NCBI RefSeq assembly: GCF_009914755.1
Contig: NC_060940.1
DNA length: 64,000 nt
Source of the DNA: the human T2T-CHM13v2.0 reference genome, Homo sapiens
Reading direction: 5' to 3' (one strand)
Positions 9,722 to 38,091 of the stretch are shown here, piece by piece. The notes under the pieces were generated by a model. That model saw nothing but the letters and a program-made list of their open reading frames with translations, had not been told where the DNA came from and did no database searches. Position 1 is the stretch's first letter; every line of letters starts with the position of its first letter. The translations under genes were made by a program, and so were the position numbers.

Positions 9722-12517
<2,796 letters not shown>

Positions 12518-12918
12518 TCGGGGGGGAGAAAACAGTGGGAAAAAGGACAGCTACCATTCAACAACAACAACAACAAAAAAGCAGGACTGGAATTAACTTA
12601 TACTCACAAAGAACTTTAAAGAATAAAATTGTAATCAAGGAATCAACTACGGACCCAAATTTTAATTTTCCAACAAATTTATATTTGAGCCTCTAATAGA
12701 GTCTTTTGAAATTGCCTTGCAGGTGACCTTTTGGATGACAATCCCTAGCTGTGCTTATCTGTCTATTATGTGTTAGATATTAAACATAACCTGCATTTTT
12801 AAATCTAAGGGTGCTAGAGTGAATCAAGTTCAAAGAGAGTTTCTACTACATTATAACTGAAACAATGTTAAGCAATTATTACTCAGGAAAATCTTGAATT
12901 TCATCTCTTTACTTATCA

Positions 12919-13098
<180 letters not shown>

Positions 13099-13887
13099 CT
13101 AGAATGACAGGGCTAGCATGCCCCTGTGGAAAGAGGGAGGAAAAGATGTCCGTCCAAGAATCATCCCCTTGATGAAGCTCCCACAGCGAAGGCATTATGT
13201 GTTGCCCCCCTCTACCTTCCCAGAGGAGTCAAATTAGCAGTCAATGCTCCATCAATCCTGGCTGACTCACATCCACATGCCTAAAAGCTCTCAGTGGGTC
13301 AATCACAGCCTCCGGCAGTCAAGAGTTTCTGAATTAGCATCCCAGATCCTGAGAAAGGTGACAATCAGGGGGCCAGGGGCTGGGTCTGACTCCGTGCAGC
13401 TCCTCAAATCCTTCCAGGACAACTCTCCACCTGCTGCCCCTGCCATGAATGAGGCCAGTCACCCAGGCTGTCCTAACAACCAGCCCAGCACCCTAGGAAA
13501 ATTCACCCAGCAGATGCCATACAAATTTTCAGAAGTACTTAAGGCCACAATATCCCAGAGCTCAGGTCTAATGAGAAAGGGAGACAATAAACATAACAAA
13601 GCATTACAGCTGTTTCATGCTGCAGGAGCGGGAGATGAGGAGGGCACAGACAGTGGGTATACGAGTAGCTCCCACCTCTCTGGATGCTTACTTCTGCAGG
13701 GTTCAAGGATTTGCATTAGGAAACCCTGAGAGGTGGTCTGATGCAGCTCTCCCCAACTTCAGCAAGGTGAAAGGAACATCTATAACTAGGAATGTGGCCT
13801 TTGAGTTCTGGCCAGAAGCCCAGCTCAGCCACTCACAGGTGGCATGTGCAGAATACAGACCCAGAGTTATCTGACTCCAATGCCTCA

Positions 13888-15530
<1,643 letters not shown>

Positions 15531-16523
15531 AATTATAATATCCCTTGAAAGCAAACAGAAGAAATCCTCTATTTCAGGCAGTAAATATGAGGCAGACAGT
15601 AGATGTAAGGGATGCTCCCAAAACTGGGCACTCTGTTAATGACAAAACAGAGACCAGAATCCACATTCCCAACACTCAGTCCAGCGCCAGAACCACAAAA
15701 CCATTTGGTTTTTGTGAAAACACTGAATTTTCCCAAAATAAAACCCAAACTATCACTAACAGATGTTTTAGATGGTCAGTCTTCATCTTTGTCTTCATTC
15801 AATGCTCATTCCTCCTTTTACTGCAAAAACAAAAGGTGGCTAAAAGAGTATTCCAGGGAGATTCTGCAACGGAGTTGAACTTCACCTTCTCCTTGGTTGT
15901 TAATAAGTTTTCTTTGAGACAAAGAAGCACAAGAAAAATAGGCTATGCTTGCTCATAAATTTCAGGCAGATGCAAACCCTGTTCCCAGGCTCAACTGGCC
16001 AGCTCTGTTTTTTTGCTAGAGATGAACACAGCTCCTGTACCTCTACATTTAGAACCAAGAGTTTCCCTATTAGGACACATGAAAAGAGCCAAAAGACATG
16101 TTTCTCTTTTTCATCAAAATTAAAATCCCCACATGCAAAGGCACCCTTTGTTTCCAAACCCCCTTCCTCTAGGGTCCTGCTGTTTCAAATCTGTGTGGTC
16201 TATTAAATGCTAAATCATCTGACAGATTTCTTCTGGGGAGACTATAGTTTCCAGGGCAACATCCAAAACACATATATCTGTCTTTTTTTTTTCTTAAGTT
16301 TTTGTTGTTCTCAACCTGAGCTGGCCTGAGCAAAACTGTTAGGTGTAGAGGATTAGAACAGAGAATGGGGACAGTCTTCCCAGAGTCCCAGAAGTACGGG
16401 GCTGAGGCTGGATTTCCCAAGGAGTTCCTGGACCAGTAATCCCCAGAGAAACAGCATTTAGCTCAAGTAACAGCCTCTAGCTCAAGCTACCAGTTCTGTC
16501 CCCCATCTCCACAGAAAACGGAT

Positions 16524-16889
16524 TGATACAGTTTGGCTTTGTGTCCCTATGCAAATCTCATCTCAAATTGTAATCCCCAGGTGTTGAGAAAGGGACCTGT
16601 TGAGAGGTGATTGGCTCATAGGGGCAGTTCCCCCCAGGCTATTCTCGTGATAGTGAGTGAGTTCTCACGAGATCTGACAGTTTCATAAGAGGCTCTTCAC
16701 CCTTCACTTCCTTCACAAGCTCTCTCACCTGCTGCCATTAAGACATGCCTTCTTCCCCTTCCACCATGATTATAAGTTTCCTGAGGCCTCCCCAGCCATG
16801 TGGAGCTGTGAGTCAGTTAAAGCTCTTTTCTCTATAAATTACCCAGTCTTGGGCAGTTCTTTATAGCAGTGTGAGAACAGACTAATACA
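16524..16889 (+). mobile_element. THE1/MSTA-type MaLR solo LTR
   Basis: tgatacagtttggctttgtgtccct...aaatctcatctcaaattgtaatcccc ... tctttatagcagtgtgagaacagactaataca; TG..CA ends. Confidence 0.85.
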
Positions 16890-17456
16890 CAGACCAAAAG
16901 AAAATTAATAGAAAGGGGCATGGCTGTGCTGAATGGAACTGCTCGTTACAGAAGACCAGACATCTATCAGAAAAACCTGCCCAATGCCGTAGCTAATTCC
17001 AAAACTAAAGATTAACCCAGCAAAGCCACAATGTACTTCCAACTCTTGGCAGTTCCAAATGAGGTCAGCATTTAATAATGGCAGCCCCTAACCCTAGCAG
17101 GAGCACAGCAGTAACACAGATGAAAGGTGCAGGTGACAGCCTTCACTAAGGACACATTTACTCATCTGAATGAACAAGCAGTGGGACCCTTTATACCCAG
17201 TCACTTGGGCTTGAGAAATAGCTGGATTCTCCCCAGGGAGGCTGCCCTCCTCCCCCAGTTCCCTGATTTAAGGTTGAAGATGGCTGGAATGCACCCCACC
17301 TGTGAAGAACAGTGGACATGGCTTGGGGTAGAGCCAGAACAAGACCTCAAAAGGACACAGGCCAAACTGGAGACTCGGGGCAGCCAGGTGGAACCAGAAC
17401 AGGACATAAAGTGAGCTTGTACATCCAACAGCCATGAGTAACATCAAAAAGGTTGT

Positions 17457-17670
17457 AGCCTGGCCAACACGGCAAAACCCCATCTCTACAAAAAATACAA
17501 AAAGTAGCTGGGCGTGGTAGCATGCACCTTTAATCCCAGCTACTTGGGAGGCTGAGGCAGGAGGATCACTTGAACCCGGGGGCAGAGGTTGCAGTGAGCT
17601 GAGATTGTGCCACTGCACTCCAGCCAGGGAGACAGAATGAGAACCTGTCTCAAAAAAGGAAAAAAAAAAC
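17457..17670 (+). mobile_element. 5'-truncated Alu
   Basis: Starts at agcctggccaacacggcaaaacccc and ends in an A-rich tail. Confidence 0.85.
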
Positions 17671-17824
17671 AGGTTGTAACCCATCTGCCAAGATACTCCC
17701 CCAATACATTAAAACAATTAAACAGATTCAACAAAGTAAATATGTTTCTGTCCTCTGTCTCATGTCTCTCATGCAGCAGGGCTTCCCATGTATTTTATGC
17801 TAGCAGGCACTGTCCCACACCCAC

Positions 17825-17909
17825 CTGAAACCATGGTGTCTTAAGGCTTCTTCTGTCGTAAAACATGCCTTTGGATCCACTACCAACAACTTCTTGACAA
17901 GGTCCAGAG
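17825..17909 (-). pseudogene. CHEK2: CHEK2 pseudo-exon 13 (85 nt versus 86 nt; 1-nt deletion; R474C-equivalent codon)
   Basis: (A)[24 protein letters not shown], then CACCATGGTTTCAG|gt where CHEK2 has CACCCGTGGCTTCAG. Confidence 0.93.
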
Positions 17910-18916
17910 CTAAAGCAACAATTGGGCAAATCACAGTGAAAAGTATAAATATATTATCAGTAATAGTATGCCAGAATTAACAGGTCACCATCCAGAAAGA
18001 GCAGAGAGGGTCTGAGATCATCAGGGAGTCAGCAGACAGGGCCCCTTAATCTTCCTCATTCTCTGTATTCAGAGTACTGTGAGAAGACCAGGAATGACAA
18101 TGACACTCCCTGTCTCCTGCTGCTGGGACATCAGTCACTACCTCTTCGTTGCCTGTTCCCTCTCTTGTTGCTAGACTCGAGGTCAAACTAATTAAAGCTA
18201 AACTTCTACCCAATTCTAAGATAACTGGGATGCACAGCAAACTCTCCCTGACATCTACAGATGGATGGGTGACAGTTACTCAGCCAGGGAGAGGCTCCCT
18301 GGAACTGCAGACTTGTCAGAAATAAAACTTGACTACTCCAGCAAGCAACAAATGCACGCTGGCCTGTATATTACAACATTATTATTCCTTAAATATTCTG
18401 ACATTTAACACAATCACCTATGTTATGTTATTTGACATTTAATTTTCTACTTTCTCTTCAGGGAACTAAAGTTGCCAGGATAAATTATAAAATATAAGGT
18501 AACTAAAGACATCTAGTTTTTACACGCTTGCTTACTCAAAGGAAACCTTGTAACTAAAAAGTTACAAGTGCATTTATTTTGCTCATTAAAATAGGTACCA
18601 GGCACTTGTGTACATTATCCCTAACCCTCAAAAACCTTTTAAGGTAGGGATTATTGAGGGTCCCTTTACACAGAAAGAAATTGGAGACAGAGGTTAAATA
18701 ACTTGCCTAAGGCCACACAGCTAAGTAGTAGCAGACCCAGGACCTGAGTGCATGCTCTTAATAATTTCCAGTGCCTCTCAAATGGTGTGAAACTAACGAT
18801 AGAAAATAAGAACAGAATTGACAGGAGAAAACACCATGGAATTTGGAGAGAAACTCCCACCACAGGACACACACATTTTAGAATACCACAAATTCTTAAC
18901 CCTTTCATATTCATAC

Positions 18917-19032
18917 CTTTCTCTGAGATTTCTGCCCAGACTTTAGGAATGAAGTTGTGTTTTCCACTGGTGATCTGATCCTTCAGTGACACTTGAGTCC
19001 TATGCTCAGAGAAAGGTGGATACCCACTAAGG
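18917..19032 (-). pseudogene. CHEK2: CHEK2 pseudo-exon 12 (116 nt)
   Basis: [38 protein letters not shown] (also visible in ORF 18666..19088 -), with AG/GT intact. Confidence 0.95.
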
Positions 19033-19499: not shown

Positions 19500-19637
19500 C
19501 AGATAAAAAGAATAACTCCTAAAACCCAGCAGTCCAACACAAACAAGAACTTCAGGAGCCAAGCAGGTGGGGGTTCCACATAAGGTTCTCACGAGAGAGG
19601 TCTCTCCCAAAATCTTGGAGTGCCCAAAATCAGTAAT
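19500..19637 (-). pseudogene. CHEK2: CHEK2 pseudo-exon 11 (138 nt versus 164 nt; DFG and APE motifs; M381V and Y390C equivalents)
   Basis: [34 protein letters not shown], then a deletion of the GTAGYNRAVDCW region. AG and GTAAG flanks. Confidence 0.95.
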
Positions 19638-20181
19638 CTAAAATTCAGTACAAAAGGGAATAATGTTGAACTTGTCATAAAATAAAAAGATTAACATAGT
19701 CTGCCAGTCCAAGAAGGCACGTAGGCTAGATCAGTTTCTATTGTACAATTCACACCTGCCATTAATCTGGAATCTACAGATTCATGTCTTTGCAAGTTAA
19801 GACATTTAACTTTGCTTAAATTAAAATTCCTGAGCCTAGGAATCTCAACACTCAGGCTTTCCAACTTAACCTATGTCCTCTGTAATCTTACAAAAAGCTT
19901 ATTACCTTTATCACAGACACTTCAGGATTCTAATTAGTTCTACATGTTTCTTAGACCCCACTGTCTCAAACATGGCTGCGCTATGGAATACCTGTGGAGC
20001 TTGGAAAAACATGCTTATACCTGAGTGCCACTCTCAGCTTCTGAGGTAAAGCCTGGGTATCATAAATCCTAACAAGAGATTCTAAAGTGATGCCAGGCTT
20101 GATAAACAGGGAAAGGCAGGGCATGTGATTACACTCATTCATTCATTCACCTATTCTGCTCAAAGGGAGACAGTGTCCCCA

Positions 20182-20451
20182 AGGTCTGTGCTGAGGAGAA
20201 AGCTGCTCTGCCTTCGAGGTGTACCCCGGGTCTGTGCTGAGCAGAACGCAGCTCCGCCCTCGCGGTGCCCCCGGCCCGCCCGCCCGGGTCTGTGCTGAGG
20301 AAAACACTGCTCCGCCTTCGCTGTATCTCCGAAGTCTGTGCAGAGGAGAACTCAGCTCGCCCTCACGATGCAATCTGGGTCTGTGCTGAGGAGAGCGCAG
20401 CTCCGCCCTCGCAAAGGCGCACAGCGCGGGCGCAGGCGCAGAGAGGCGCAC
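20182..20451 (+). repeat. Interstitial TAR1 (telomere-associated repeat) fragment: five ~46-bp units and one 29-bp subtelomeric unit
   Basis: gtctgtgc(t/a)gagga(g)aa..ctccgcc units start at 20184, 20230, 20288, 20334 and 20379. They are followed by gcaaaggcgc...ggcgcaggcgcagagaggcgc, as in the recalled human subtelomere sequence next to (CCCTAA)n. Confidence 0.92.
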
Positions 20452-22849
20452 ATTTTATGAATAGCAAATCAATTTCTCCCTGTTCCTCTTACATCGAGGC
20501 TGGACACACGTTTACAGGGGATCAGTGTGAAGGGAAGCTGGTGAGGCTGCCTGAGAAGCCCCCTGCCTGCGTCTCCCAGTGGACTCCTTGGGAGCGCCCC
20601 CTCCCCTGCTCTGCCCAACAGCGCCTGAACTGTGGCCACTTGCACTCCTGTTGCCTACCCAGTGGCTTGAACTCCAGAACTTGCCACCCTTCAGTGGAAT
20701 TCCTGGAGGAGTGAGGAGCTCTGTGCTATGCTTGGCCACCGAACATGGGCCATCTCTCCTATTATGGTTTGAAATGTACCGTAGTGTCTTGTTTGGTAAT
20801 TGTATAATAATATGGGGAGACTGTGCGGGTGTCTGCTAGCTTGTCTGCTGGTTCTTACTCATGGTGCCTTCTTCCCTTTCAGACTTGGATATCTTTGTGT
20901 GCTTCTTGGGGCCCTTGGAAGGGTGTCTGTGGGGTTTCCGTGAGGCCAAAGACAGAGGTTCCTTCTCACGAGGATGGTGTTTGCTTTCACATGGACAGCC
21001 CAGACCACCTGGAACCAAGTGCACAGAAGCCCCACCATCCCCGGGCCTCCCAGTTGTGATGGGTGAGCGGTCCAAGTCCGCAGGAGGCCAGAGGCTCTTT
21101 GTGGTTGAATCTGTGAGTTTCCTTTCCTTTTTCCCTCCCACTCCTTTTAATGCTAATGAATTCCTTGTTTGGGGGCAGGGGCCAGGGTTATCTCTTCTTC
21201 TGTCTTCACCCAAGGTGAGGCCTTTCAGGCTCCCAGCTTGATATGGGGGTGAATCCCCTATCAGCCTCCTCATACCTTGACCTCTGTCTACCCTCCTACT
21301 CCCTCCAAGGTCGAAGCCCAACTTGCCAGGTTGGCAAATGCTCACAGGCAACAATGGCCCCAGCGCTCCTCCCTAGGTTCTTGATTTTCCCCTGAAACTT
21401 GGCCTGGAGGTTTCCTACTAGCTTAGCAGCCCTTTGATGCTTTTAACGTAATTTTTTTATTATTTTATCCAAAATTCTTGCTTGTTTTAAGAGGGAAAGC
21501 AGGTCGGCCATTACTGCACAGAGAATCTGGGACAGTTATTATAACCATAGAAATTTATTTTCCATGTGCTGTCCCATCTTCTTGATGAGACAGATGTTTA
21601 ACAGCTGGAGAACTGGACCCCGTATTTGTCCCCATCTTGCCTAGCAACAGAAGGTAGTCACTAATCAGGGATTTTCGAGCCCATTGCTTAAGGCCTTCAT
21701 TGACCCAAAGGATAGTGGGTCCCTGCTCCTCTTCCTGCGGAGAGGCCCAGGTGCCCAGAGGGCCCTCCTGGCTTGGCTGCCTACAGAGTGGCTGATGAAG
21801 TGTCCGCTGTGCGCACAGGACACCCAGCCCCACTCCTCCCCAGGCAGCCCCTCAAACAGCTGTTGCTCTGCCTGCTTCGGCTGTGGACCTGAGGCTGAGA
21901 GGCTGAGCCATCGCCCTGAGCCGCATGCAGGGGAGTGGCAGGCCTGGACCCAGTGCCCAGACCTGGCTCACCTGACCTTACTTTTTCCACTGTGCCTGCT
22001 TCTCCCTCCCAGGCTCTGTGACCTTGGGCAGCCATGGCCATCCTGTGCCCATTCCCAGCTGTAAAATGAGAGGCTGGGCTGGCTGATCTCAAATGTCCCC
22101 TGCCAGCCTGAGATTCTGTGTTGTGTCCTGGGGTGTGACTGTGACATGCCACCAAAGGCAGCTGCCAGTGCTCATGAGGGAGGCCTTTTTCCTGAGTTAA
22201 GGCAGGTGGGGGGACTGGGGGTGAGTTGAGGGACTGGGAGGTGGGGGAAGCACACAGACAGTCCTCCCCAGCTGAGCGCTCATGGTGAATTACCTTCAGT
22301 CCCAGGCTCAGTGCTTTGGAAATGCTCTCAGGCCCAGCACCCAGGCCTGGAACCAGCCTCCAGGCCCCTGGCCCTCCCTTTCTCTACTGGAATCTTCCAG
22401 ACCGAGGCAGGTCAGCTGAAAGTCACCGACTCTGCCTTCCACAAACTCATAGCTGACAGACCATTCCATGTCCCCTCCCAGCCCCGTCCCAGGAGCGGAA
22501 CTCACTTTGCCTTCCCACCCTCCAGGCCGACTCACTGTCCGTCACTCTCTGGGTCCCACCCACTGTCCCACCGACTTCATTGGTCTAAAAATATGCTCTG
22601 GCATCTTGTTGGAAAGCAGCAGGAATGATGGGCCCTGCTGATAAGGTGAAGAAAGTGACCCGAGGGGGCAAACTTACGGACGGGACATACTTTGGCAAAA
22701 TAACAAAACAGCGGGACCTGAAGGCTGGCTTCCCAAGCGTCCTCAAGGCCTTGTGCCAGGAACAGGACCCTCGGGCTTAGGAAAGTGAAAACCAGGCTCA
22801 GGTCCCTCACCCAGACCCTTCTGCCCGCTTTGGGAGGGAGCCCAAGAAG

Positions 22850-23150
22850 TCAGCTAGGGAGGGACCTCCCGGTGGGACCTGAGTCCTGATTGGAACTTTC
22901 TGGGGGCTTTCTTGGCATTTTACGTGTGTTGTCACAACTCCTTGATGGGAGAATTAAGCATGGTCTGTGGGATTCCACTGGGAGAGGACCCCTAAAAGCC
23001 TGGGCCGGGCCTCCTCCCAATTTCACCCCATATGCCTTTCCCTTTGCTCATTATGCTTTGTGTCTTTTGCTGTAGTAAACCGTAGCCATGACTTTTGCAA
23101 GTCCTCCTAGATTAACACTGAACTTGGGGGTGGTTTTAGGGACCCTGACG
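22850..23150 (+). mobile_element. Old ERVL-type LTR fragment (MER68/MER77-like)
   Basis: ggattccactgggagaggacc...gcctttccctttgctcattatgctttgtgtc...gtcctcctag...gaacttgggggtggttttagggaccc. The subfamily is uncertain. Confidence 0.55.
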
Positions 23151-23154
23151 TACC

Positions 23155-25260
<2,106 letters not shown>

Positions 25261-26203
25261 CTCTCCCTTCATTTTCTCATTCATTTATTTTATTTTACTA
25301 TCATATATATATATATATATAATTTCATATTATCTTATTTTAGTTTTTAGAGACAGTGTCTTGCCCTGTCACCCAGGCTGGATTGCGGTGGTGTGATCAT
25401 AGTTCACTGCAGTATCAACCTCCTGGACTCAAGCGATCCTCCTGCCTGGGACTATAGGCATGCACCACCATGCCCAGCTAATCATCCATTTCTTTCTTTT
25501 TTTAAAACAAATTTTATGTTTATTTATTTATTTATTTGGATTTCTCCTACCGAAAGGAATCATTCTTTTTTTTTTTTTTTTTTTTTTGAGAGGGAGCCTT
25601 GCTCTGTTGCCCAGGCTGGAGTGCAGTGGCACAATCTCAGCTCACTGCAACCCCTATCTCCCAGGTTCAAGCCTCAGCCTTCTGCATAGCTGGGACTACA
25701 AGCGTGCGCCACCACACCCAGCTAGTTTTTGTGTTTTTTATTAGAGACAGAGTTTCACTATATGTTGGCTAGGCTGGTCTCGAACTCCTGACCTCAGCTG
25801 ATCCACCTGCTTCGGCCTCCCAAAGTGCTGGGATTACAGATGTGAACCACCACGCCTGACCCGAATCATTCATTTCTTTTCAAGTGGATATCTTACGGTA
25901 TTTTAGGGCATGGCTAGGAGCAGTTTTGTTTTCTCTTCTCAAGACAGAGTTTTTGTAGGATGTCATAGAGTTCATGTCTGCAGCTCACAGTGTCATTGCC
26001 TGTGTCCCCAGCTCCACGTACTGGCAGGTGTGCTGCAAGCTGGGCAGGTGCTCTGTGTCCGTGGGATACCTTACCCGACACTCCCGGCCCTCCTCTGCAA
26101 GCCGTGCCCTGATCCTCCCTGCAGGGACTGGGGATTGGGTCTGCTCACCCAGAAGCTGGGATACCTGGCTGAGGGCACTTCTCTCCCTCTTCTCTTTGAA
26201 CAG

Positions 26204-26332
26204 AGTGGCCGCAAACCCAAAGGTGCGGGAGCAAGTGCGGCTGGAGCTGAGCTTCGTCAACTCAGACCTGCAGATGCTCAAGGAAGAGCTGGAGGGGCTG
26301 AACATCTCAGTGGGCGTCTATCAGAACACAGA
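26204..26332 (+). pseudogene. RHPN2: RHPN2 pseudo-exon 3 (129 nt, HR1/REM-1 C-terminal part)
   Basis: cag|A GTG GCC... [42 protein letters not shown](E)|gtaagt. Confidence 0.95.
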
Positions 26333-27510
26333 GTAAGTGGGAGCAGCACACCTTCCAGAAGCCTCTGAGCCAGAGATCCTTCATACATCCAGGGTATGAA
26401 GAGGTACCTGGGTACGAACCCTATCTGCACAGAGGCTAGATAGGGTTCTAGACTGGGGTGTGGCAGCCCCAACTTTGGGAAGTGAGAGAACCATCAGCTT
26501 TGGGGTTGAGTGAGGTGCTAGACTGGAAGGGATGAGCCCATTTGTTGGGAAATATCTGCAGTGTTGAACAAAAAGGCATTTGTGAGGCCGGGCACAGTGG
26601 CTCACTCCCATAATCCCAACACTTTGGGAGGCTGAGGCATGTGGATCACCTGAGGTCAGGAGTTCGAGACCAGTCTGGCCAACATGGTGAAACCCCGTCT
26701 CTACTAAAAATAAAAAAAATAGCCGGACATGGTGGTGCACACTTGTAATCCTGGCTTCTCAGAGGCTGAGACAGAATTGCTTGAACCCGGGAGCTGGACA
26801 TTTCAGTGAGCCGAGATCACACTACTGTACTCCAGCCCGGCTGACAGAGCAAGACTCTGTCTCAAAACAGACAAACAGACAAAAAAAAAAAAAAAACAAA
26901 TGAAGACAGTATAAAATCTAGTGTAAATATATGTGATGAACCAAGATAAGTTTAAAAGTTAGATGCCTTGGATTTTATAGTTAATTTTCAGTAATTCCGC
27001 ATAGTCACATTTCATAGACATGCAAACATTAGCAAGATATGTTATTAAATTCAACTGAACAGACATTGAGCAAGGATATTTTAGTGAGTCACCATAATTT
27101 TCCTAAGGACATTGTTAGGACAATACCTTTCCAATGTTGGCTAATTATTTTCTCATTTATTTGCCAAGGAACAAAAAGCATACGCAAATACTTCGGGATT
27201 AAGGCCAAAGGCCAAAATTGACCCTGTAAGGGGAGGCCACTATGCACACACAGAGATTCTGTGCACTGTACTTACGTTGGACTGCAGTCTGTTTCCTAGC
27301 TGGAGGTGACAAACTGAAACAGAAAAATCCAAATTAAAACAAAGTAACACACCAGTCTCCTTTTAAGGTTGTATTTCTTTTTTTTTTTTTTTTTTTTTTT
27401 TGACACAGAGTCTCCCTCTCTCACCCAGGTTGGAGTGCAGTGGCGAGATCTCAGCTCACTGCAATCTCCACCTCCTGGGTTCAAGCGAATCTTGTGCCTC
27501 AGCCACCTGA

Positions 27511-27708
<198 letters not shown>

Positions 27709-29831
27709 TGAAGGCACTTTATCATATCATTCTCCATAACTCAATTTTGGAATCGATTTCTGCAAGGTGAAAGCCAACAACACCATCCCTCAGAATTGCA
27801 ATACATCTCCAAAAATGGAGATCTAACTATGAAAGAAATGCCCCTCTTGCCTCATGCCTGTAATCCCAGCTCCTCAGGAGGCTGAGGTGGGGGATCGCTT
27901 GAGCCCAGGAGTTCAAGGCCAGCCTGGGCAACTTAGTGAAACCCCATCTCTACAAAAAATAGGAAAATTAGCCGGGCATGGTGGTGCACACCTGTAGTCC
28001 CAGCTACTCAGAAGGCTGAGGTGGGAAGATCACTTGAGCCAGGGAGGTCGAGACTGCAGTAATGGCAACAGAAAGAAGTCCTGTCTCAAAAAACACAAAA
28101 ACAAAACCAAACCCTAAGTGAAATGCTTCTTTTTAAGGAGAAATAACTTTGAGACAGTTCAAAGAAGGGTTTACGTGCTTTTTCAGTGTGGGCATGAGAC
28201 TTCTCAAAAAGTAGGTGGGCCCCAGGGGAAACTCAGTTGGAAAATAGCTCCCTGGATTTGGAAACCTTGAGTCACCTATGGAATGTGTGTTTCCTGGTGC
28301 TGGTCCTCCACAGGGCACCGGGGTGGTTTCAGAGCTGGAGGGGAAGCGTCAGAAGTGTCTGTCATGGATATGCTTTGAAATTTAAAACTTACATCCTCTT
28401 TTATTAATAGCGTATTTTTTTCTTAAATCATGTATCCAGTTTAGGTTATGTCTTTGGAAGAATAGCTAAAGTTTTTTCTCTAACATTTTATTATGAAAAT
28501 TTCCAAACTTTTCAAAAAATTTTAAGAATTTTCTAGCAAACCCCTGTGTACTCACTTCTTCCAAGAACATACTATCAGCATTGCTTCCTGACATATTTGT
28601 CCATCTGTGTATTCTTGTGTCTGTTAGGTTGGTTTGAAGGTAATTGCAGTTTTTGCCATTGAAAGTAATGGCTAAAGGCTGGGCACAGTGGCTCATGCCT
28701 GTAATCACAGCACTTTGGGAAGCTGAAGCAGGCAGATCACTTGAGCTCAGGAGTTGAAGACCAGGCTGGCTAAAATGGTAAAACCCCTGTCTCTACCAAA
28801 CGTACAGAAATTAGCTGGACGTGGTGGTGCACACCTGTAATCCCAGTTACTGGAGAGGCTGAGGCAGGTGAATCATTCGAACCTGGGAGGTAGAGGTGGA
28901 GGTTGCAGGGAGCCAAGATCATGCATGCCACTGCCCTCCAGCCTGGGTGACAGAGTGAGATCCCATCTCAAAAAAAAAAAAAAATTAACTGGGCATAGTG
29001 GCATTTGCCTGTAATCCCAGTTACTCAAGAGGCTGAGGCATGAGAGAGGCGCTTGAACCCAGGAGGCAGAGGATGCAGTGAGCTGAGATTGTGCCACTGC
29101 ACTCCAGCCTGGGCAACAGTGAAACTGTCTCAAAAAAAAAAAAAAAGAGAATGAAATTAATGGCTAATATCAGTCTGTCTTATTTGTGATGCAATTTCAA
29201 AGGAAATCAAAGATGTCAATTCACTCCCATTAAATATTTGAATAACCAGAGTCTTTGCTTGTGTGTCCCCCTGCCACATTCCTGGGTATCTGGACTCCTC
29301 TCCCATTTGGCAGATCCTCATAAGCCCACCTGTGCCTGGCACTGTGCTGGGTGCCAGAGGTGCCACAAGCCCTGCCTGCGGGGCCCTTGGGTCAGTGGGG
29401 GATTCAAGTGGGAAGTGGAAGGGGTGCTTCAATGGAGAACACAGGAGAGACCATGCCCCAATGCTGGGGCTGGGAGACCATCCTGTGCCTGGAATACCCT
29501 CCTCTTCCTTCCCTCTTCAACTCCATCAATTTGAGTTTTTAACCAGTCGCCTCCAAATTCCATCAAGGAGGGGAAAGGGGATGAGGTGCAGGGTGGCCCA
29601 AGTTTGCATCATGCAGCCCAGGCATTGGTTATAGGAATTAATCCTAGCATCACGAAAATTGCTTCGAAGAAATATTTTATGTTCTTTTTTTTTCTTTTTC
29701 TTTATTATTTTGAGACAGAGTCTCACTGTTTCACCCAGGCTGGCATGCAGTGGCATGATCTTGGCTCACTGCAACCCCTGCCTCCTGGGCTCAGTTGATC
29801 CTTCCACTTCAGCCTCCTGAGTAGCTGGTAA

Positions 29832-30434
<603 letters not shown>

Positions 30435-31067
30435 TGAGCTGGAGTTTCGCTCTTGTTGCCCAGGCTGGAGGGCAGTGACGGCCATCTCAGCTCACTGCAA
30501 CCTCCACCTCCCAGGTTCAAGTGATTCTCCTGCCTCAGCCTCCTGAGTAGGTGGGATTACAGGCACCCGCCATCATGCCTGGCTAATTTGTGTTTTTAGT
30601 AGAGATGGGGTTTCACTATGTTGGCCAGGCTGGTCTCGTACTCTATCCACCCGCCTCGGCCTCCCAAAGTGCTGGGATTACAGGTGTGAGCCACCGCTCC
30701 TGGCCAACTACTACTTTTAAAAGCAATTGGTTAATACTTTGGAAGCACTTGACCTTCATTCTCAGAGACGGTGAGTTGTTTGACATAAATAGAGGCCTTT
30801 TTGACTGCTGCCTTGCTTAAATCCTGTGAGTTTGGGGTTTATTTTGGGACTGGAGAAGGGAAGTTGGTATTCTGAGTGTTTCAGGACTCAAGTTTACCAG
30901 AAAGTTTATGTTCTGGGTAGAAAGCAATGAAAACAATCCAGGAATTGCAGCTTTATGCCACACTGCCACAGCCTGCCTGAACTTTTACGTGAGACTTATG
31001 CCCAGATGCAATGGTTCACACCTATAATCTTAGCACTTTGGGAGGCTGAGGCAAGAGGACAGCTTGA

Positions 31068-31247
<180 letters not shown>

Positions 31248-32022
31248 TGAGCAGCTGGGACTACAGGCATGCACCACCATGGCCAACTAATTTTTGCGTG
31301 TATATATGTATATTTTTTTGAGATGAAGCCTCATTCTGTCGCCCAGGCTGGAGTACAGTGGCGTGATCTCGGCTCACTGCAAACTCCACCTCCCAGGTTC
31401 AAGCAATTCTCTGCCTCAGCCTCCTGAGTAGCTGGGGTTTTTCAGGAACCCACCACCACGCCGGCTAATTTTTGTATTTTTAGTAGAGACAGAGTTTCAC
31501 CATCCTGGCCAGGCTGGTCTTGAACTCCTGACCTCATGATCCACCTGCCTCGGCCTCTCAGAGTGCTGGGATTAGAGGTGTGAGCCACTGCGCCAGGCTA
31601 ATTTTTGTATTTTTAGTAGAGACAGGGTTTCACCATCCTGGCCAGGCTGGTCTTGAACTCCTGACCTCAGGTGATCTGCCCACCTTGGCCTTCCAAAGTA
31701 CTGGGATTACAGGCATCAGCCACCATGCACAGTCATCTCTTTCTCTCTCTCTCTTTTTTTTTTTTCTTTTTTAAGAGATGGGGTCTCCTCACTATGATGC
31801 CCAGGCTGGTCTTCAGCTCCTGGCCGCAAGCGATCTTCCTGCTTCCACCTCCAGCAAAAGTGCTGAGATTATAGATGTGAGCCACCACACCCAGCCCCAT
31901 CTCTATTTTTATTTAAAATATATGTGTGTATATATAAATGCAAAAATAGATGTGACTTGCCACTGGTCTGTGGGACTCAAAACAATCCACCTGTTTGGAA
32001 ATGTCTGTTGCTGCTATTGTAG

Positions 32023-32287
<265 letters not shown>

Positions 32288-32782
32288 TGAACTCCTGACC
32301 TCAGATGATCCGCCTGCCTCAACCTCCCAAAGTGCTGGGATTACAGGCATGAGCCACTGCGTCCGGCCAAGAATGCAAGCATTTCAAAGGAAGAGTCTCT
32401 TGGAGAAACTTAGGAATTTTATAGGCATTTTTAAGGATTCAACTGGGTCATGTTCTGAATTCCACATTAAAGCAAATGAAAATATTCACATGTTGTGGAC
32501 ATGGCCAACTGCCATTCGGCACAGGCTTCCAACCATGTCATTTTAGCCTAAAAGAGACTCTACAAATGTCAGTCATATGAAAATGAGAACGTTTGAGGGA
32601 TTTTCTGTTGTATTTTTTCCCTTCTATATTTGAGAGAAACACAGGTACTGCAGAAGTGGTTCAGCAGACTGAATTAGAGCAATTCCATTTCAAATGTGAC
32701 TTGTGTGTCCGTGTGATTTTTTTAATAATCAGTGAAGCTTCACAGTGTGATTTTGTTTTATTTTATGTATTTATTTATTTAG

Positions 32783-32887
<105 letters not shown>

Positions 32888-33297
32888 TGAGTACCTGGGA
32901 TTACAGGCATCCACCGCCACACCCAGCTAATTTTTATATTTTTAGTAGAGACAGGGTTTCACCATGTTGGCCAGGCTGTTCTCGAACTCCTGACCTCAAG
33001 TGATCCACCCGCCTCAGCTTCCCAAAGTGTTGGGATTACAGGCGTGAGCCACTGCAGCTGGCTGATTTTGTTTTATTTTGAGGAAATAGGGCCAGGGACA
33101 GTGGCTCACACCTTTAGTCCCAGCTACTTAGGAGGCTGAGGTGGCTTGCTTGAGCCCAAGAGGTCGAGGCTGCAGTCAGCTGTGATTGAGCCCCTGCAGT
33201 CCATCCTGGAAAACAGAATGATACCTTGTCTCATAAAAAAAAAAAAAAAAAATTCGAATCAATGAAAGAAAATGAAATCACATCTGTTCTTCGGTAA

Positions 33298-33633
<336 letters not shown>

Positions 33634-34034
33634 TGATCCGCCTACCTCAGCCTTGAAAACTGCCAGGATTACAGATGTGAGCCACCACACCTGGCTGTCT
33701 GTTAAGTTTTTCTAATTGGTTATTGCTTGTATAAGAAAGGAAAAATATTGACTTTTCTTTTTTACTATTGACTTTCATGTGTTAACTTCTTTGCCACTTT
33801 ATTGAATTCTTATTAATTTAGTAATGTTTCAGTTGATGCTATTGGGTTTTATAAACATGCTGTTGTGTTGCAAAAAATTATTTTGTTTCTTTCCAAGATT
33901 TTATGTCTCTTATTTTTCTTAATGTGTGGGCTAGAGAATGTTTGGAATTAGGCTAAGTAATAACAGTGATGGTAGAAATTCTCATTTTGTCCCTAATGTT
34001 TACAGTGGGTTTCAGTTAGGATTTTTTTTTTTAG

Positions 34035-34250
<216 letters not shown>

Positions 34251-34457
34251 TGATCCACCTGCCTCGGCCTCCCAAAGTGCTGAGATTACAGGGGTGAGCC
34301 ACCGTGCCTGGCCAGTTAGATAATTTTTTTTATCCCACTAAGTACATTAATCTACCCTAGTTTACTAAGTTTCAAATTCAGGATCACATATATAATTTAA
34401 TCAAAATCCTCTTTGACTTTTATGAGGTGAACATAAGATTGGAGTGCAGTGACGTGA

Positions 34458-34655
<198 letters not shown>

Positions 34656-34706
34656 TGACCCCTTTTAACCACCATGCCCAGCTATTTTATTTTTTTATTT
34701 TTTTAA

Positions 34707-34910
<204 letters not shown>

Positions 34911-35841
34911 TGAGGTGGGAGGATCACCTGAGGCCAGGAGTCCAAGACCAGCCTAGGCAACATAGGAAGACTCTGTCTTTACGAAAAATAACAATATTAG
35001 CTGAGTGTGATGGTGCAGACCTATAGTCCCCTCTACTGGAGAAGCTGAAGTGGGAGGATGACTTGAGCTCAGGAGTTCAAGGCTGCAGTGAGCTATGATT
35101 GCACCATTGCACTCCACCCTGGACGACAGAGCGAGACCCTCATCTCTTAAAAAAAGAAAAAGAAGGCACAGCAAAGTTGTATATTTAGTACAAATCCATT
35201 TTTGTAAGACAAGTGTTTGTCTGTGTGTCTGTACGTTGAACACACAAAAACAGGAGGAGCTTTAATGTAGAAGTTGTGTAAAGAGGTTACACAGTCACTT
35301 GGGAAGACATAATTGAGCGATCTATGTGATCACCTTTCTTGCAGCTTGGGGGAGCCAGCACTTGTAGGGGCAGCGGTGGGGTGACGGGGCAAAACCCCAT
35401 CTCTATTAAAAAATACAAAAATGAAATTAGCTTGTGGCACGTGCCTGTGGTCCCAGCTACTTGGGAGGCTGAAGTAGGAGGATTACTTGAGCCCAGAGAA
35501 GTCGAGGCTGCGGTGAGCCGCGATCGCACCACTGCACTCCAGCCTAGGCAACCACGTCAGACCCTGCCTCAAAGATAAAATAAAATAAAATGCCTTTATA
35601 ACATGGTTAAGGGTCTTCTTGGCAAAGGAAACCTGTATCAGGGGACTGTTATGACAGTCCTACCCTCAGGGTCTGTGCTGGGAAACTTGTCCAGGTCCTG
35701 AGGGAGGCCCAGAATTGCAAGTCTGAGCCCCTGAATATCTGCAGTGTTTGCAGTATGGTTGAATGTATAGTCCATAGACTAGTCTCAAACTCCTGGGCTC
35801 AAGTGATTTACCTGCCCTGTCTTCACAAAGTGCTGGGATTA

Positions 35842-36455
<614 letters not shown>

Positions 36456-36645
36456 CTACAGAGCAAGACTCCATATAAAAAAAACTACATAAATTAAGAA
36501 AATAAATTCCCCCACTTTGAAAATCACTGTAAGTTTTTCTTTATTCTGCCTTTTTAGAAACAGGTTCACAATTGACATATTACTGTTATGCACATACATG
36601 GTTTTCAATCACATTTTATAGTATCTAACCTCACTTTTCTTTAAG

Positions 36646-36723
36646 GATTTTATCCTGGAACATTACAGTGAAGATGGCTATTTATATGAAGATGAAATCA
36701 CAGATCTTATGGATCTGAGACAA
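36646..36723 (+). pseudogene. RHPN2: RHPN2 pseudo-exon 5 (78 nt)
   Basis: aag|[26 protein letters not shown]|gtaagt. Confidence 0.95.
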
Positions 36724-36916
36724 GTAAGTTTTTGTGTGCAGCAGAGAGGGGAGGGTAGCTTTTCCAAGTTTTCAGGGAACCCCATTATTGCACGCTTGTG
36801 GTCTTAACAGAATCATGGGCAGATTGAGGTGATGGCTGGGGGGTGCTGGAATCATCCATTCCATTTGCTGCATAAGAAAACTGTAGAAGGAGGCCGGGTG
36901 CGGTGGTTCACGCCTA

Positions 36917-37177
<261 letters not shown>

Positions 37178-37180
37178 CTA

Positions 37181-37513
<333 letters not shown>

Positions 37514-37563
37514 TCAGCTGTGTCCTCCTCTGCTCATGCCCTCTGGGGTTCTTTTCCTCGCAG

Positions 37564-37688
37564 GCTTGTCGGACGCCCAGCCGGGATGAGGCCAGGGTGG
37601 AACTGCTGATGACATACTTCATCCAGCTGGGCTTTGTTGAGAATCGATTATTCCCACCCACATGGCAGATGGGATTCCTGTTCACCTG
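37564..37688 (+). pseudogene. RHPN2: RHPN2 pseudo-exon 6 (125 nt)
   Basis: cag|ACRTPSRDEARVELLMTYFIQLGFVENRLFPPTWQMGFLFT(W)|gtaggt. Confidence 0.95.
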
Positions 37689-37762
37689 GTAGGTGCTGGA
37701 GGTCTGCGCTGGCGCTTCACGTGTTATGGCAGCCACAGTTTTGGAGCCTCAGCATCACAGAC

Positions 37763-37863
37763 GCCCCTCTGTGGGCACCTCAGCCCCTTTTCCTATCTTG
37801 CATTTTTCCGGGGTGCACCCCTGTGCACCTCAGCCCCCTTTCCTATCTTGCATTTATCCAGGG
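37763..37863. repeat. 50-bp tandem duplication
   Basis: gcacctcagcccc(t/c)tttcctatcttgcattt(t/a)tcc(g/a)ggg starts at 37775 and again at 37825. Confidence 0.85.
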
Positions 37864-38075: not shown

Positions 38076-38091
38076 GTGTGTATGTGTGAGT

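What the first reader, a model, noticed from the sequence alone, without database searches (positions are those of the whole stretch)
20140..20460. Subtelomeric TAR1/TERRA-promoter fragment oriented to transcribe the decapitated CHEK2 exons (candidate promoter capture)
Seen: a CpG-rich TAR1 fragment with one 29-bp unit and an NRF1-type motif GCGCAGGCGC (20430-20439) lies ~550 bp 5' of CHEK2 pseudo-exon 11. A minus-strand donor TAG|GTGAAT sits at 20151/20150 and the exon 11 acceptor at 19638-19639 is intact. Known: at chromosome ends this TAR1 orientation has (CCCTAA)n on its left, and TERRA is transcribed leftwards from the 29-bp-repeat CpG island, with NRF1 implicated. Here CHEK2 intron 10 occupies the position of the telomere repeats, in the sense direction. 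From memory, the annotated CHEK2P2 transcript spans roughly 9 kb, which measured from the poly-A site would put its start in this element; that needs verifying. Inference: a TERRA-type promoter was co-opted to express a spliced checkpoint-kinase pseudogene RNA, possibly responsive to demethylation (DNMT3B/ICF, cancer, testis).
Basis: partly seen in the sequence, partly recalled or inferred. Interest (0 to 1): 0.8.

Follow-up and report, generated by a model that had tools for sequence, protein, structure and literature searches.

The report
Telomere-type promoter fragment heading CHEK2 pseudogene RNA
A 292-base piece of the CpG-rich repeat that normally starts telomere transcription at chromosome ends is wedged between two copied gene fragments near the chromosome 16 centromere, and the annotated non-coding RNA made from the CHEK2 gene copy begins inside it; this is a tidy example of a kind of promoter borrowing that is already described.

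Summary
Window 20161-20452 is a 292-bp TAR1/TERRA-promoter fragment: five 37-bp-type units plus about 1.3 units of the 29-bp core repeat, with GCGCAGGCGC at 20430-20439. It is 84% identical to the Xq reference TERRA promoter and is the only CpG-rich stretch at this junction. The telomere side is on the left, so the TERRA sense is the minus strand.

The fragment is joined cleanly to CHEK2 intron 10 on the left (junction about 20158/20161). On the right it is joined to a 22q13.31 duplicon (junction 20451-20452), which is followed by an RHPN2 duplicon from 22913.

The donor TAG|GTGAAT (20151|20150) and the exon 11 acceptor (exon starts 19637) are real. They are exactly the exon1-exon2 junction of the predicted RefSeq lncRNA LOC101929031, whose start (20382) lies inside the fragment. 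The donor is not TAR1. It is a cryptic site inherited from CHEK2 intron 10.

A second model, LOC102724181, starts 48 bp from the other edge and runs the other way, so the fragment may work in both directions.

Promoter capture is the best reading (about 0.7). NRF1 and methylation control are untested. In kind this is already in print (Santagostino 2025; Dubocanin 2022), so it is a new member of a known kind and of modest interest.

The parts
20161..20452 (-). TAR1 / TERRA-promoter fragment, 292 bp, and the CpG island of this junction. Telomere-proximal side on the left, so the TERRA sense is the minus strand.
   Evidence: 84.2% over 292 bp to the Xq reference promoter, the only strong hit in the window. 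88-91% to at least 36 other interstitial copies over 20161-~20452. GC 0.64-0.78 and CpG o/e 0.69-1.12, against 0.11 and 0.32 in the flanks.
20161..20415 (-). Five 37-bp-type repeat units (start-to-start spacing 46, 58, 46, 45), each with a GCTCCGCC(C/T)-type core.
   Evidence: the repeat finder family D1. Aligned to the Xq 37-bp tract.
20416..20452 (-). One 29-bp core-promoter unit (20416-20444, 26 of 29 matches to the Xq consensus) plus 8 nt of a second unit. Holds two overlapping NRF1-like motifs, GCGCGGGCGC at 20424-20433 and GCGCAGGCGC at 20430-20439.
   Evidence: PMC6600276 states that each 29-bp repeat holds two putative NRF1 sites.
20403..20408 (-). GC box GGGCGG, 21-26 nt upstream of the model start at 20382.
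   Evidence: Motif scan. The Sp1 assignment is recalled, not tested.
20151..20382 (-). Exon 1 of predicted lncRNA LOC101929031, 232 nt: about 222 nt of TAR1, 2 nt of junction and 8 nt of CHEK2 intron 10.
   Evidence: Hub RefSeq table. Junction mapped.
20145..20153 (-). Splice donor TAG|GTGAAT (GT at 20150-20149). A cryptic site already present in parental CHEK2 intron 10, lying in and next to a (TCAT)n run.
   Evidence: The same ATTCACCTA is present in the chr22 parent and in the chr15 and chr16 copies aligned.
20158..20161 (.). CHEK2 | TAR1 junction. CHEK2 homology runs through 20158 and TAR1 homology starts at 20161, with 2 nt ambiguous.
19500..19637 (-). Exon 2, the CHEK2 exon 11 pseudo-exon (DFG-motif exon, ITDFGHSK..., with an internal deletion and frame loss). 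Native acceptor AG at 19639-19638.
11579..19032 (-). Exons 3-6 (18917-19032, 17825-17909, 12967-13047, 11579-11822), the CHEK2 3' exons. All have GT-AG borders, and an ATTAAA lies near the 3' end.
   Evidence: The exon 3 peptide is 35 of 38 identical to human CHK2 in PDB chain 2ycf_A, E 3e-19.
20451..22915 (+). 22q13.31-derived duplicon (94-95% to C22:46623801-46626255, opposite strand). Carries exons 1-2 (20500-20540, 20883-21112) of the 'rhophilin-2-like' pseudogene model LOC102724181. 2-bp microhomology (CA) with the TAR1 end.
   Evidence: Hub table.
22913..64000 (+). RHPN2 (19q13) duplicon start. 92.7% to C19:35545000-35548600, shown only up to 26537. The rest is inferred from the hub's pseudogene model.

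Best explanation
During the build-up of the 16p11.2/15q11 pericentromeric duplication mosaic, a 292-bp fragment of the subtelomeric TAR1 CpG island was joined by end-joining-type junctions (0-2 bp of overlap). The fragment carries the 37-bp tract plus about 1.3 units of the 29-bp TERRA core promoter. It lacks the 61-bp CTCF repeats, the pre-tel stretch and the telomere repeats.

On its telomere-facing side it is joined to the 5'-truncated CHEK2 duplicon (intron 10 onward). On its other side it is joined to a 22q13.31 piece followed by an RHPN2 piece.

The fragment is the only CpG island at the junction and acts as a TATA-less promoter. Transcription starts in the last 37-type unit (model start 20382). 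A GC box lies at -21..-26 and NRF1-like motifs at -42..-57. Transcription runs in the TERRA direction and crosses into CHEK2 intron 10. Ten nucleotides past the TAR1 edge, at the end of exon 1 (20151), it meets a cryptic donor that was already in that intron. From there it splices to the native exon 11 acceptor and uses the remaining CHEK2 exons and poly-A site. The product is the lncRNA LOC101929031, and by homology CHEK2P2 on chr15.

Without the 61-bp CTCF block the fragment probably also fires rightwards, because LOC102724181 starts 48 bp from its other edge.

Shown: the anatomy, junctions, orientation and splice sites, and their agreement with the RefSeq model.
Inferred: that the fragment is the working promoter, that it is bidirectional, and that it shares TERRA-type control through NRF1 and CpG methylation.
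For: Anatomy and homology.

Orientation:
- At 16p and at five other true ends the element aligns with the telomere on the left.
- Hsieh et al. list the p-arm TERRA regions as minus strand (PMC12242772, supplementary Table 1).

Junctions:
- The CHEK2 parent (C22:29157049-29157831, 94%) matches through 20158.
- The 22q13 parent matches from 20451.

Agreement with annotation:
- The hub's RefSeq model has exon 1 at 20151-20382 and exon 2 at 19500-19637, which are the donor and acceptor I verified.
- The CHEK2P2 GRCh38 span of 8,815 bp (PMC13474685 passage) compares with 8,843 and 8,852 bp in the T2T chr15 copies. If the 3' ends coincide, its end falls inside the homologous TAR1 piece.

Promoter-like features:
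- The core-promoter window around 20382 lies wholly in TAR1, with a GC box, NRF1-like motifs and no TATA.
- CpGs have been kept. 21 of 25 family-consensus CpGs are retained. None of the CpG positions shows a C>T or G>A change. Mismatches are 4 of 50 at CpG positions against 14 of 238 elsewhere. This fits a stretch that is unmethylated in the germline, although the numbers are small.

Activity of close relatives:
- Five of the nearest interstitial relatives (L013, L019, L020, L024, L025; 89.6-89.9% identical) lie about 400 bp right of ITS tracts. Hsieh et al. list these tracts as transcribed with a '37 nt' promoter (supplementary Table 4.1).
- One of six TERRA region starts taken from their Table 1 (20p) maps to window-equivalent 20372, 10 nt from the model start.

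Expression and shared origin:
- CHEK2P2 RNA was measured by RNA-seq and RT-qPCR in HEK293T and HeLa cells (PMC8568969 passages).
- The junctions are shared by the chr15 and chr16 copies. This matches Munch et al. 2008, who found that 16p11.2a and 15q11.2 have the same distal homology (PMC2566985, section 14).
Against: - The RefSeq transcript is a predicted model. I saw no CAGE, RACE or long-read data.
- The locus has a twin at chr16:35.14 Mb. It was identical in three of the five stretches compared and within a few bits of self in the other two. There are also 93%-identical copies on chr15. Supporting reads therefore cannot be assigned with confidence to this copy.
[quoted passage not shown] This copy is short and has no 61-bp CTCF repeats.
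- A CHEK2 review calls the duplicated 3' exons 'non-expressed pseudogenes' (PMC7763663 passage).
- Five of the six TERRA region starts I mapped lie 32-812 bp beyond the aligned element on the centromere side. Two fall inside the run of 29-bp-repeat matches, one falls about 170 bp short of the single match at 1q, and two lie beyond the run. They are not in the 37-bp tract. This fragment keeps only one 29-bp unit, and that unit has lost its CCGG site.
- The CpG-retention count rests on only 25 sites.
Confidence: 0.7

Rival explanations
1. Passive junction filler. The TAR1 piece is only debris at a duplication boundary. This copy is methylated and silent, and the RefSeq model reflects reads or cDNAs from paralogs (chr15 CHEK2P2 or the near-identical chr16:35.14 Mb twin) or low-level noise.
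For: - The twin was identical in three of five stretches compared and within a few bits of self in the other two.
- The model is 'predicted' (hub table).
- Most fragmented interstitial TAR1 copies are inaccessible in CHM13 cells (10.1101/2022.05.09.491186).
- A review calls the duplicates non-expressed (PMC7763663).
Against: - Even if reads come from paralogs, all four full-length copies share the same TAR1|CHEK2 junction. The donor was checked in the three copies aligned and is kept in all of them. The promoter-capture structure would therefore hold for the family.
- CpGs are retained without deamination-type loss.
- CHEK2P2 RNA has been validated by RT-qPCR (PMC8568969).
Confidence: 0.17
2. 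The model's 5' end is incomplete. The true start lies further right, in the 22q13.31-derived DNA or beyond, and the TAR1 piece is only transcribed first-exon sequence.
For: Predicted models often have truncated 5' ends. At five of the six true ends examined, the TERRA region starts lie centromere-ward of the 37-bp tract.
Against: - DNA to the right of 20452 is CpG-poor (o/e 0.32) with GC 0.48.
- In its 22q13 parent that position is preceded by unrelated AT-rich sequence.
- A plus-strand model starts at 20500 and runs in the opposite direction (hub table).
- The CHEK2P2 span also ends inside TAR1.
Confidence: 0.08
3. Promoter capture is real, but control is generic CpG-island and Sp1 type, unrelated to TERRA regulation. 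There would be no NRF1 dependence and no co-variation with TERRA on DNMT3B loss.
For: - Only about 1.3 units of the 29-bp repeat remain, and the unit's CCGG is mutated.
- The 29-bp sites differ from the NRF1 consensus by two nucleotides (PMC6600276).
- Four GC boxes lie on the transcribed strand.
- Hsieh et al. found no difference in TERRA level between ends with and without 29-bp repeats (PMC12242772 passage).
Against: GCGCAGGCGC is intact, 48-57 nt upstream of the model start. Demethylation and NRF1 control the same repeat at chromosome ends (PMC6600276).
Confidence: 0.4

Closest known systems
Subtelomeric 61-29-37 CpG-island TERRA promoters (TAR1; Nergadze et al. 2009, cited from other papers and not read here)
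   Same: Homologous 37-bp tract and 29-bp unit (81-84% identity to six true ends over 280-298 bp; a seventh, 2q, aligns over only 136 bp at 85%). Same orientation relative to the direction of transcription. CpG island with NRF1-like motifs.
   Different: No 61-bp CTCF repeats, no 29-like tract, no pre-tel stretch and no telomere repeats. Only about 1.3 units of the 29-bp repeat. The RNA carries CHEK2 exons, not UUAGGG repeats, so it is not TERRA.
Interstitial TERRA-like promoters of T2T-CHM13 (Santagostino et al., bioRxiv 10.1101/2025.05.15.654290; sections 5, 7, 8, 12 and passages read)
   Same: The preprint reports 106 interstitial loci. Of these, 39 have no ITS, 97 lack the 61-bp repeat and 47 have a pseudogene or ncRNA gene starting within 100 bp. 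Sixteen have genes on both sides, and 16p11.2 is named as enriched. This locus fits every one of those criteria. Their own query sequence, run here with the same word size and E cut-off, finds it.
   Different: CHEK2 and RHPN2 are not named in the main text.
DDX11L2 promoter at the 2q14.1 fusion site (Dubocanin et al., bioRxiv 10.1101/2022.05.09.491186, passages)
   Same: An interstitial TAR1 CpG island co-opted as a directional gene promoter.
   Different: That is an intact TAR1 with CTCF sites. It drives a gene that belongs to the subtelomeric block in its usual place. Here a 292-bp fragment drives foreign, 5'-truncated gene copies.
CHEK2 duplicon family, copies 16p11.2a and 15q11.2 (Munch et al. 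2008, PMC2566985, section 14 read); CHEK2P2
   Same: A roughly 20.7-kb duplicon with the CHEK2 3' exons and TTC28 exon 1. The chr16 and chr15 copies share the same distal flank.
   Different: That paper does not mention TAR1, telomere-type sequence or transcription of the copies (0 occurrences of 'TAR1' and 'telomer').

Membership tests
TAR1 / 61-29-37 TERRA promoter | Sequence homology to the reference Xq promoter | tested here: met
   84.2% over 292 bp, E 1.4e-86. It is the only strong hit in 64 kb.
TAR1 / 61-29-37 TERRA promoter | 29-bp repeat tract (core promoter) | tested here: met
   Minimal form only. One unit at 26 of 29 matches plus 8 nt. Santagostino et al. report tracts of 25-1302 bp at true ends.
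TAR1 / 61-29-37 TERRA promoter | 37-bp repeat tract | tested here: met
   Five units at 20164-20412, aligned to the Xq tract.
TAR1 / 61-29-37 TERRA promoter | 61-bp repeats with CTCF sites | tested here: not met
   No match to the 61-bp part of the Xq reference anywhere in the window.
TAR1 / 61-29-37 TERRA promoter | Adjacent (TTAGGG)n, so that the transcript contains UUAGGG repeats (this defines TERRA) | tested here: not met
   No tandem CCCTAA or TTAGGG (2 or more units) in the window. CHEK2 intron 10 lies where the pre-tel stretch and telomere would be.
TAR1 / 61-29-37 TERRA promoter | CpG island | tested here: met
   GC 0.62-0.66 and o/e 0.77-0.81 with 24 CpG. The flanks are CpG-poor.
TAR1 / 61-29-37 TERRA promoter | Promoter activity, NRF1 binding and repression by CpG methylation | not testable with these tools
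   Only motifs were seen. Function is known for the chromosome-end copies from PMC6600276.
Interstitial TERRA-like promoter flanked by genes (Santagostino 2025) | Found by BLAST with the Xq reference at an internal site, with no ITS | tested here: met
   The window is chr16:33.73-33.79 Mb (hub).
Interstitial TERRA-like promoter flanked by genes (Santagostino 2025) | An annotated gene starts less than 100 bp from the promoter | tested here: met
   The LOC101929031 start at 20382 is inside the fragment. The LOC102724181 start at 20500 is 48 bp from the edge at 20452 (hub table).
Interstitial TERRA-like promoter flanked by genes (Santagostino 2025) | Listed in their Supplemental Tables S3 and S4 | not testable with these tools
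CHEK2 duplicon, 16p11.2a type (Munch 2008) | Holds the CHEK2 3' exons and TTC28 exon 1, collinear with 22q12.1 | tested here: met
   The exon 12 peptide is 35 of 38 identical to CHK2. Window 2901-4550 matches C22:29140492-29142147 and window 19400-20158 matches C22:29157049-29157831, with equal spacing.
CHEK2 duplicon, 16p11.2a type (Munch 2008) | Same distal flank as the chr15 copy | tested here: met
   The chr15 copies match through TAR1 and into the 22q13 piece.

The most novel reading that the evidence does not exclude
The 292-bp fragment is a minimal, CTCF-less, bidirectional TERRA-type promoter carrying a single 29-bp unit. It puts two decapitated gene copies under the same control as telomere transcription: the CHEK2 3' exons leftwards and the 22q13/RHPN2 chimera rightwards. 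That control would be NRF1/AMPK activation and DNMT3B-dependent methylation.

CHEK2-pseudogene RNA is about 94% identical to the 3' part of CHEK2 mRNA. On this reading it would rise together with TERRA in hypomethylated states (ICF syndrome, ALT tumours, ageing). It could then interfere with CHEK2 measurement or regulation. It would also serve as a unique-sequence, easily assayed reporter of TERRA-promoter activity.
Probability: 0.15. Interest if true: 0.55.

Novelty: new member of a known kind. Interest (0 to 1): 0.3.

Why it matters
It gives a concrete, base-pair account of how 5'-truncated CHEK2 copies come to be transcribed and spliced. A review still describes these copies as non-expressed. 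The account has three steps: a borrowed telomere-type CpG island supplies the start, a cryptic donor already present in CHEK2 intron 10 supplies the first splice, and the native exons do the rest.

This matters in practice. CHEK2P2-family RNAs turn up in expression, methylation and array studies and cross-hybridise with CHEK2.

It is also useful for telomere biology. TERRA promoters are hard to assay because their products are repetitive. A spliced RNA with unique exons, driven by a minimal 37/29-bp fragment, could report on that promoter type.

It does not change the field's picture. TAR1 co-option at internal sites is already described.

Tried and rejected
- Earlier findings of this scan were not open.
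- Nergadze et al. 2009, the primary TERRA-promoter paper, is not held. Its mapped start site could therefore not be compared. I used the TERRA region starts of Hsieh et al. 2025 instead. Only 1 of 6 fell inside the aligned element.
- An Rfam scan of 11000-23500 at gathering threshold gave 0 matches.
- Literature searches:
  - 'CHEK2 + pseudogene + TAR1' gave 0 papers.
  - 'LOC101929031 / RHPN2P1 / CHEK2P3-5' gave 5 papers, all from the search listing. I opened only PMC10962427, where LOC101929031 appears once, in an array probe label.
  - 'CHEK2P2' gave 24 papers. None of the 15 listed has the term in title or abstract. I opened two, PMC13474685 and PMC8568969, and neither deals with the promoter.
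- I considered that exons 1-2 of the 'rhophilin-2-like' model were RHPN2 exons. I rejected this because they match 22q13.31 at 94% and have no chr19 match among the 7 candidates, all of which were scored.
- I considered a telomere-repeat remnant at the junction. I rejected this because none is present.
- The bacterial promoter and terminator scanner and the prokaryote protein tools were not used, as they do not apply to human DNA.
- No splice-site scoring model was available. Donor strength is judged only against the consensus: it fits at 7 of 9 positions, with -3 and +5 off consensus.
Full report
**What is there**

The window is T2T-CHM13 chr16:33728001-33792000 (hub; confirmed). Reading 19400-21200 on both strands shows a GC- and CpG-rich block between two CpG-poor flanks.
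- Window 20140-20460 has GC 0.62, CpG o/e 0.77 and 24 CpG, against o/e 0.25 for the whole window.
- Split by origin, the CpGs sit only in 20161-20452. The 37-type part has o/e 0.69 and the 29-bp part has o/e 1.12.
- The CHEK2-intron flank 19640-20160 has o/e 0.11 and the right flank 20453-20560 has o/e 0.32.
- The block contains five direct repeats at 20164-20412, with start-to-start spacing of 46, 58, 46 and 45. TRF sees two of them as a 46-bp period.

**Identity as TAR1 / TERRA promoter**

I fetched the end of chromosome X, which includes the reference TERRA promoter used by Santagostino et al. (chrX:154255311-154256622).
- TRF finds its 61-bp repeats and a perfect 9-unit 29-bp array there.
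- BLAST of that reference against the whole 64-kb window (word size 11, E up to 10, as in their methods) gives one strong hit. It is 20161-20449, 84.2% over 292 bp, E 1.4e-86. It covers the last 1.2 units of the 29-bp array and the whole 37-bp tract. The other three hits listed lie inside the same stretch.
- Nothing matches the 61-bp, 29-like or pre-tel parts. The window holds no tandem CCCTAA or TTAGGG.
- Window 20416-20444 matches the reverse complement of the Xq 29-bp consensus at 26 of 29 positions, and 8 nt of a second unit follow.
- GCGCAGGCGC at 20430-20439 is the only copy in the window. The expected count is 0.03, and 3 of 100 shuffles reach one. It overlaps GCGCGGGCGC at 20424-20433.
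- PMC6600276 (passages) states that each 29-bp repeat holds two putative NRF1 sites. These sites differ from the consensus by two nucleotides.

**Orientation**

Six true chromosome ends of the same assembly were fetched: 16p, 9p, 20p, 2q, 1q and 4q.
- With the telomere placed on the left, the window's plus strand aligns to five of them at 81-83% over 280-298 bp. It aligns to 2q at 85% over 136 bp.
- At those five ends the alignment begins about 370-440 bp from the last CCCTAA run. At 2q the tract abuts the telomere.
- Hsieh et al. list the p-arm TERRA regions as minus strand (PMC12242772, supplementary Table 1).

**Copies in the genome**

A search of the assembly with 20140-20460 scored 40 of 139 candidates and returned 40 long matches, which is a lower bound.
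- Only four matches cover the whole query. They are this locus, a 100% twin at chr16:35143627, and two 93% copies on chr15 (18.19 and 19.36 Mb).
- The other 36 long matches start at query position 22, which is window 20161, and run to about 20447-20452 at 88-91% identity.
- Of the 26 such loci fetched, 22 have 13-19 CCCTAA and no TTAGGG in the 1.5 kb on their left. All have a pre-tel-like left flank.
- The fragment is closer to this interstitial subfamily than to true ends.

**Junctions**

The CHEK2 side:
- Window 19400-20165 has six homologs: three on chr16, two on chr15, and the CHEK2 parent at C22:29157049-29157831 (94%). The parent matches through window 20158.
- The alignment shows the parent reading ...ATTCACCTATTCTG and then continuing into unrelated sequence. 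The window continues as CT and then CAAAGGGAG..., which is the start of the 37-bp tract in all TAR1 copies.

The right side:
- TAR1 homology runs through 20452. From 20451 the window matches C22:46625463-46626255 on the opposite strand at 94%. This is a 22q13.31 segment. The two share CA.
- That segment runs to 22915. From 22913 the window matches C19:35545000-35548600 at 92.7%. This is the RHPN2 parent region.

The mosaic is CHEK2/TTC28 duplicon | 292-bp TAR1 | 2.46-kb 22q13.31 piece | RHPN2 duplicon. The chr15 copies share both TAR1 junctions. This agrees with Munch et al. 2008, who found that duplicons 16p11.2a and 15q11.2 share the same distal homology (PMC2566985, section 14). That paper does not mention TAR1 or telomere sequence.

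**The transcript**
- On the minus strand the donor is TAG|GTGAAT, with the last exon base at 20151. The acceptor is ...tttag|ATTACT, with the exon starting at 19637.
- These are exactly the borders of exons 1 and 2 of the predicted RefSeq lncRNA LOC101929031 in the hub table (20151-20382 and 19500-19637).
- The donor lies 10 nt outside TAR1, in CHEK2-intron DNA. The same sequence is present in the chr22 parent. It is therefore a pre-existing cryptic site that became usable once transcription entered from TAR1.
- All five downstream introns are GT-AG, and an ATTAAA lies near the 3' end.
- Exon 2 reads [15 protein letters not shown]... and then loses frame.
- The exon 3 peptide is 35 of 38 identical to human CHK2 (PDB chain 2ycf_A, E 3e-19).
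- The tail reads ...[25 protein letters not shown].
- The spliced model has stops in all frames, so it is non-coding.

**Promoter features around the model start, 20382**
- The start is an A preceded by C.
- A GGGCGG box lies at -21..-26.
- The two NRF1-like motifs lie at -42..-57.
- There is no TATA and no CCAAT.
- A strict Inr match lies at 20378-20372.
- The whole -60..+220 interval is TAR1.

**TERRA region starts at true ends**

I mapped the TERRA region starts of Hsieh et al. for the six ends.
- 20p maps to window-equivalent 20372.
- The other five lie 32-812 bp further from the telomere than the aligned element.
- Two of these (2q, 4q) fall inside the run of 29-bp-repeat matches. 1q falls about 170 bp short of its single match. 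16p and 9p lie beyond the run.

At true ends the 37-bp tract is therefore usually transcribed sequence downstream of the start. Here only one 29-bp unit is left, and the model start sits in the last 37-type unit.

**CpG retention**

I compared the window copy with the majority consensus of 32 other copies (26 interstitial and 6 true ends).
- The window copy keeps 21 of 25 consensus CpGs.
- No C>T or G>A change occurs at CpG positions.
- Mismatches are 4 of 50 at CpG positions against 14 of 238 elsewhere.

This is what an island unmethylated in the germline would show. The sample is small, and several relatives show the same pattern.

**CHEK2P2**
- A table in PMC13474685 (passage) gives GRCh38 chr15:20,282,744-20,291,558, a span of 8,815 bp.
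- In the T2T chr15 copies the homologs of window 11579 and 20382 are 8,843 and 8,852 bp apart.
- In the 19.36-Mb copy the TAR1 piece lies about 8,619-8,913 bp from the poly-A-end homolog. I derived this from the coordinates.
- If the 3' ends coincide, the CHEK2P2 boundary falls inside TAR1, about 30 bp downstream of the homolog of 20382.
- CHEK2P2 RNA was detected by RNA-seq and RT-qPCR in HEK293T and HeLa cells (PMC8568969, passages).
- A review nevertheless calls the duplicated exons non-expressed pseudogenes (PMC7763663, passage).

**The other direction**
- The hub's pseudogene model LOC102724181 ('rhophilin-2-like', plus strand) starts at 20500, 48 bp from the TAR1 edge.
- Its first two exons lie in the 22q13.31 piece, not in RHPN2-derived DNA.
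- In the 22q13 parent, the sequence to the left of the breakpoint is unrelated and AT-rich.
- The arrangement looks like a bidirectional CpG-island promoter between two foreign gene fragments. This is inference.
[quoted passage not shown] They count 16 loci with genes on both sides.
- I did not test whether the RHPN2 copy lacks its 5' exons.

**A natural deletion**

The chr16:34.88 Mb copy is 99% identical up to window-equivalent 20284. It then jumps to sequence that lies about 167 bp before the equivalent of window 25800. It lacks the right half of TAR1 (the model start and the 29-bp unit), all of the 22q13 piece, and the start of the RHPN2 piece.

**Prior art**
- Santagostino et al. (bioRxiv 10.1101/2025.05.15.654290; abstract, sections 5, 7, 8, 12 and term searches) report 106 interstitial TERRA-like promoters in T2T-CHM13.
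  - 39 are without an ITS and 97 lack the 61-bp repeat.
  - 47 have pseudogene or ncRNA genes starting within 100 bp.
  - 16p11.2 is named as enriched.
  - CHEK2 and RHPN2 are not named in the main text.
- Dubocanin et al. (bioRxiv 10.1101/2022.05.09.491186, passages) state two things. [quoted passage not shown] Most interstitial copies are fragmented and inaccessible in CHM13 cells.
- Hsieh et al. (PMC12242772; passages and supplementary Tables 1-4.1) list ITS-linked transcription regions with '37 nt' promoters. Five of these lie about 400 bp left of relatives L013, L019, L020, L024 and L025 of this fragment.
- No paper was found that links CHEK2 pseudogenes with TAR1.

**Verdict**

Promoter capture is the best reading (about 0.7). 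It rests on anatomy plus a predicted gene model, not on start-site data. TERRA-type regulation is an open inference. In kind it is known, and the CHEK2-specific anatomy appears undescribed in the texts I could read. I rate it a new member of a known kind, with interest 0.3.

Noticed in passing
window 2901-4550: This is the largest CpG island in the window (GC 0.66, o/e 0.82, 142 CpG). It is collinear with C22:29140492-29142147, about 16.5 kb from the CHEK2 intron 10 match. By Munch et al. 2008 it is the duplicated TTC28 exon 1 region. At least 18 long copies exist in the assembly: chr16 x10, chr15 x2, chr22 x3, chr10 x2, chr2 and chrY.
   Followed up: partly
window 20451-22915: This is a 2.46-kb duplicon from 22q13.31 (C22:46623801-46626255, 94-95%). 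It supplies exons 1-2 of the 'rhophilin-2-like' pseudogene model, so that model is a chimera of two duplicons. I could not determine which gene, if any, the parent stretch belongs to.
   Followed up: partly
G000:C16:35126389-35150287 (twin of window 2901-26800): A second chr16 copy 1.4 Mb away matched all five stretches tested. Three were identical and two scored within a few bits of self. RNA or epigenomic reads cannot be assigned between the two copies.
   Followed up: partly
L034 (G000:C16:34881806-34885571), positions 2385 onward: A third chr16 copy has a deletion of about 5.3 kb, equivalent to window 20285-~25630. The deletion removes half of the TAR1 piece, the 22q13 piece and the start of the RHPN2 piece. 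An Alu-like sequence lies at the breakpoint.
   Followed up: partly
L007, L022, L023, L026 (chr9) and L008-L010 (chr1): These interstitial TAR1 copies also end after about one 29-bp unit and continue into unrelated sequence. The chr9 set has only 1 CCCTAA in its left 1.5 kb. Single-unit, ITS-poor fragments are therefore a recurrent form.
   Followed up: no
window 51551-52050: My CpG-island scan flagged this stretch (GC 0.64, o/e 0.60), but it has only 3 CpG. That implies strongly skewed C/G content. I did not examine it.
   Followed up: no
literature: A 2020 CHEK2 review (PMC7763663) calls the duplicated 3' exons 'non-expressed pseudogenes'. RefSeq, however, models a spliced lncRNA here, and CHEK2P2 RNA was validated by RT-qPCR (PMC8568969). 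An array probe set is annotated 'CHEK2 /// LOC101929031' (PMC10962427), so cross-detection of CHEK2 and its copies is a practical issue.
   Followed up: partly
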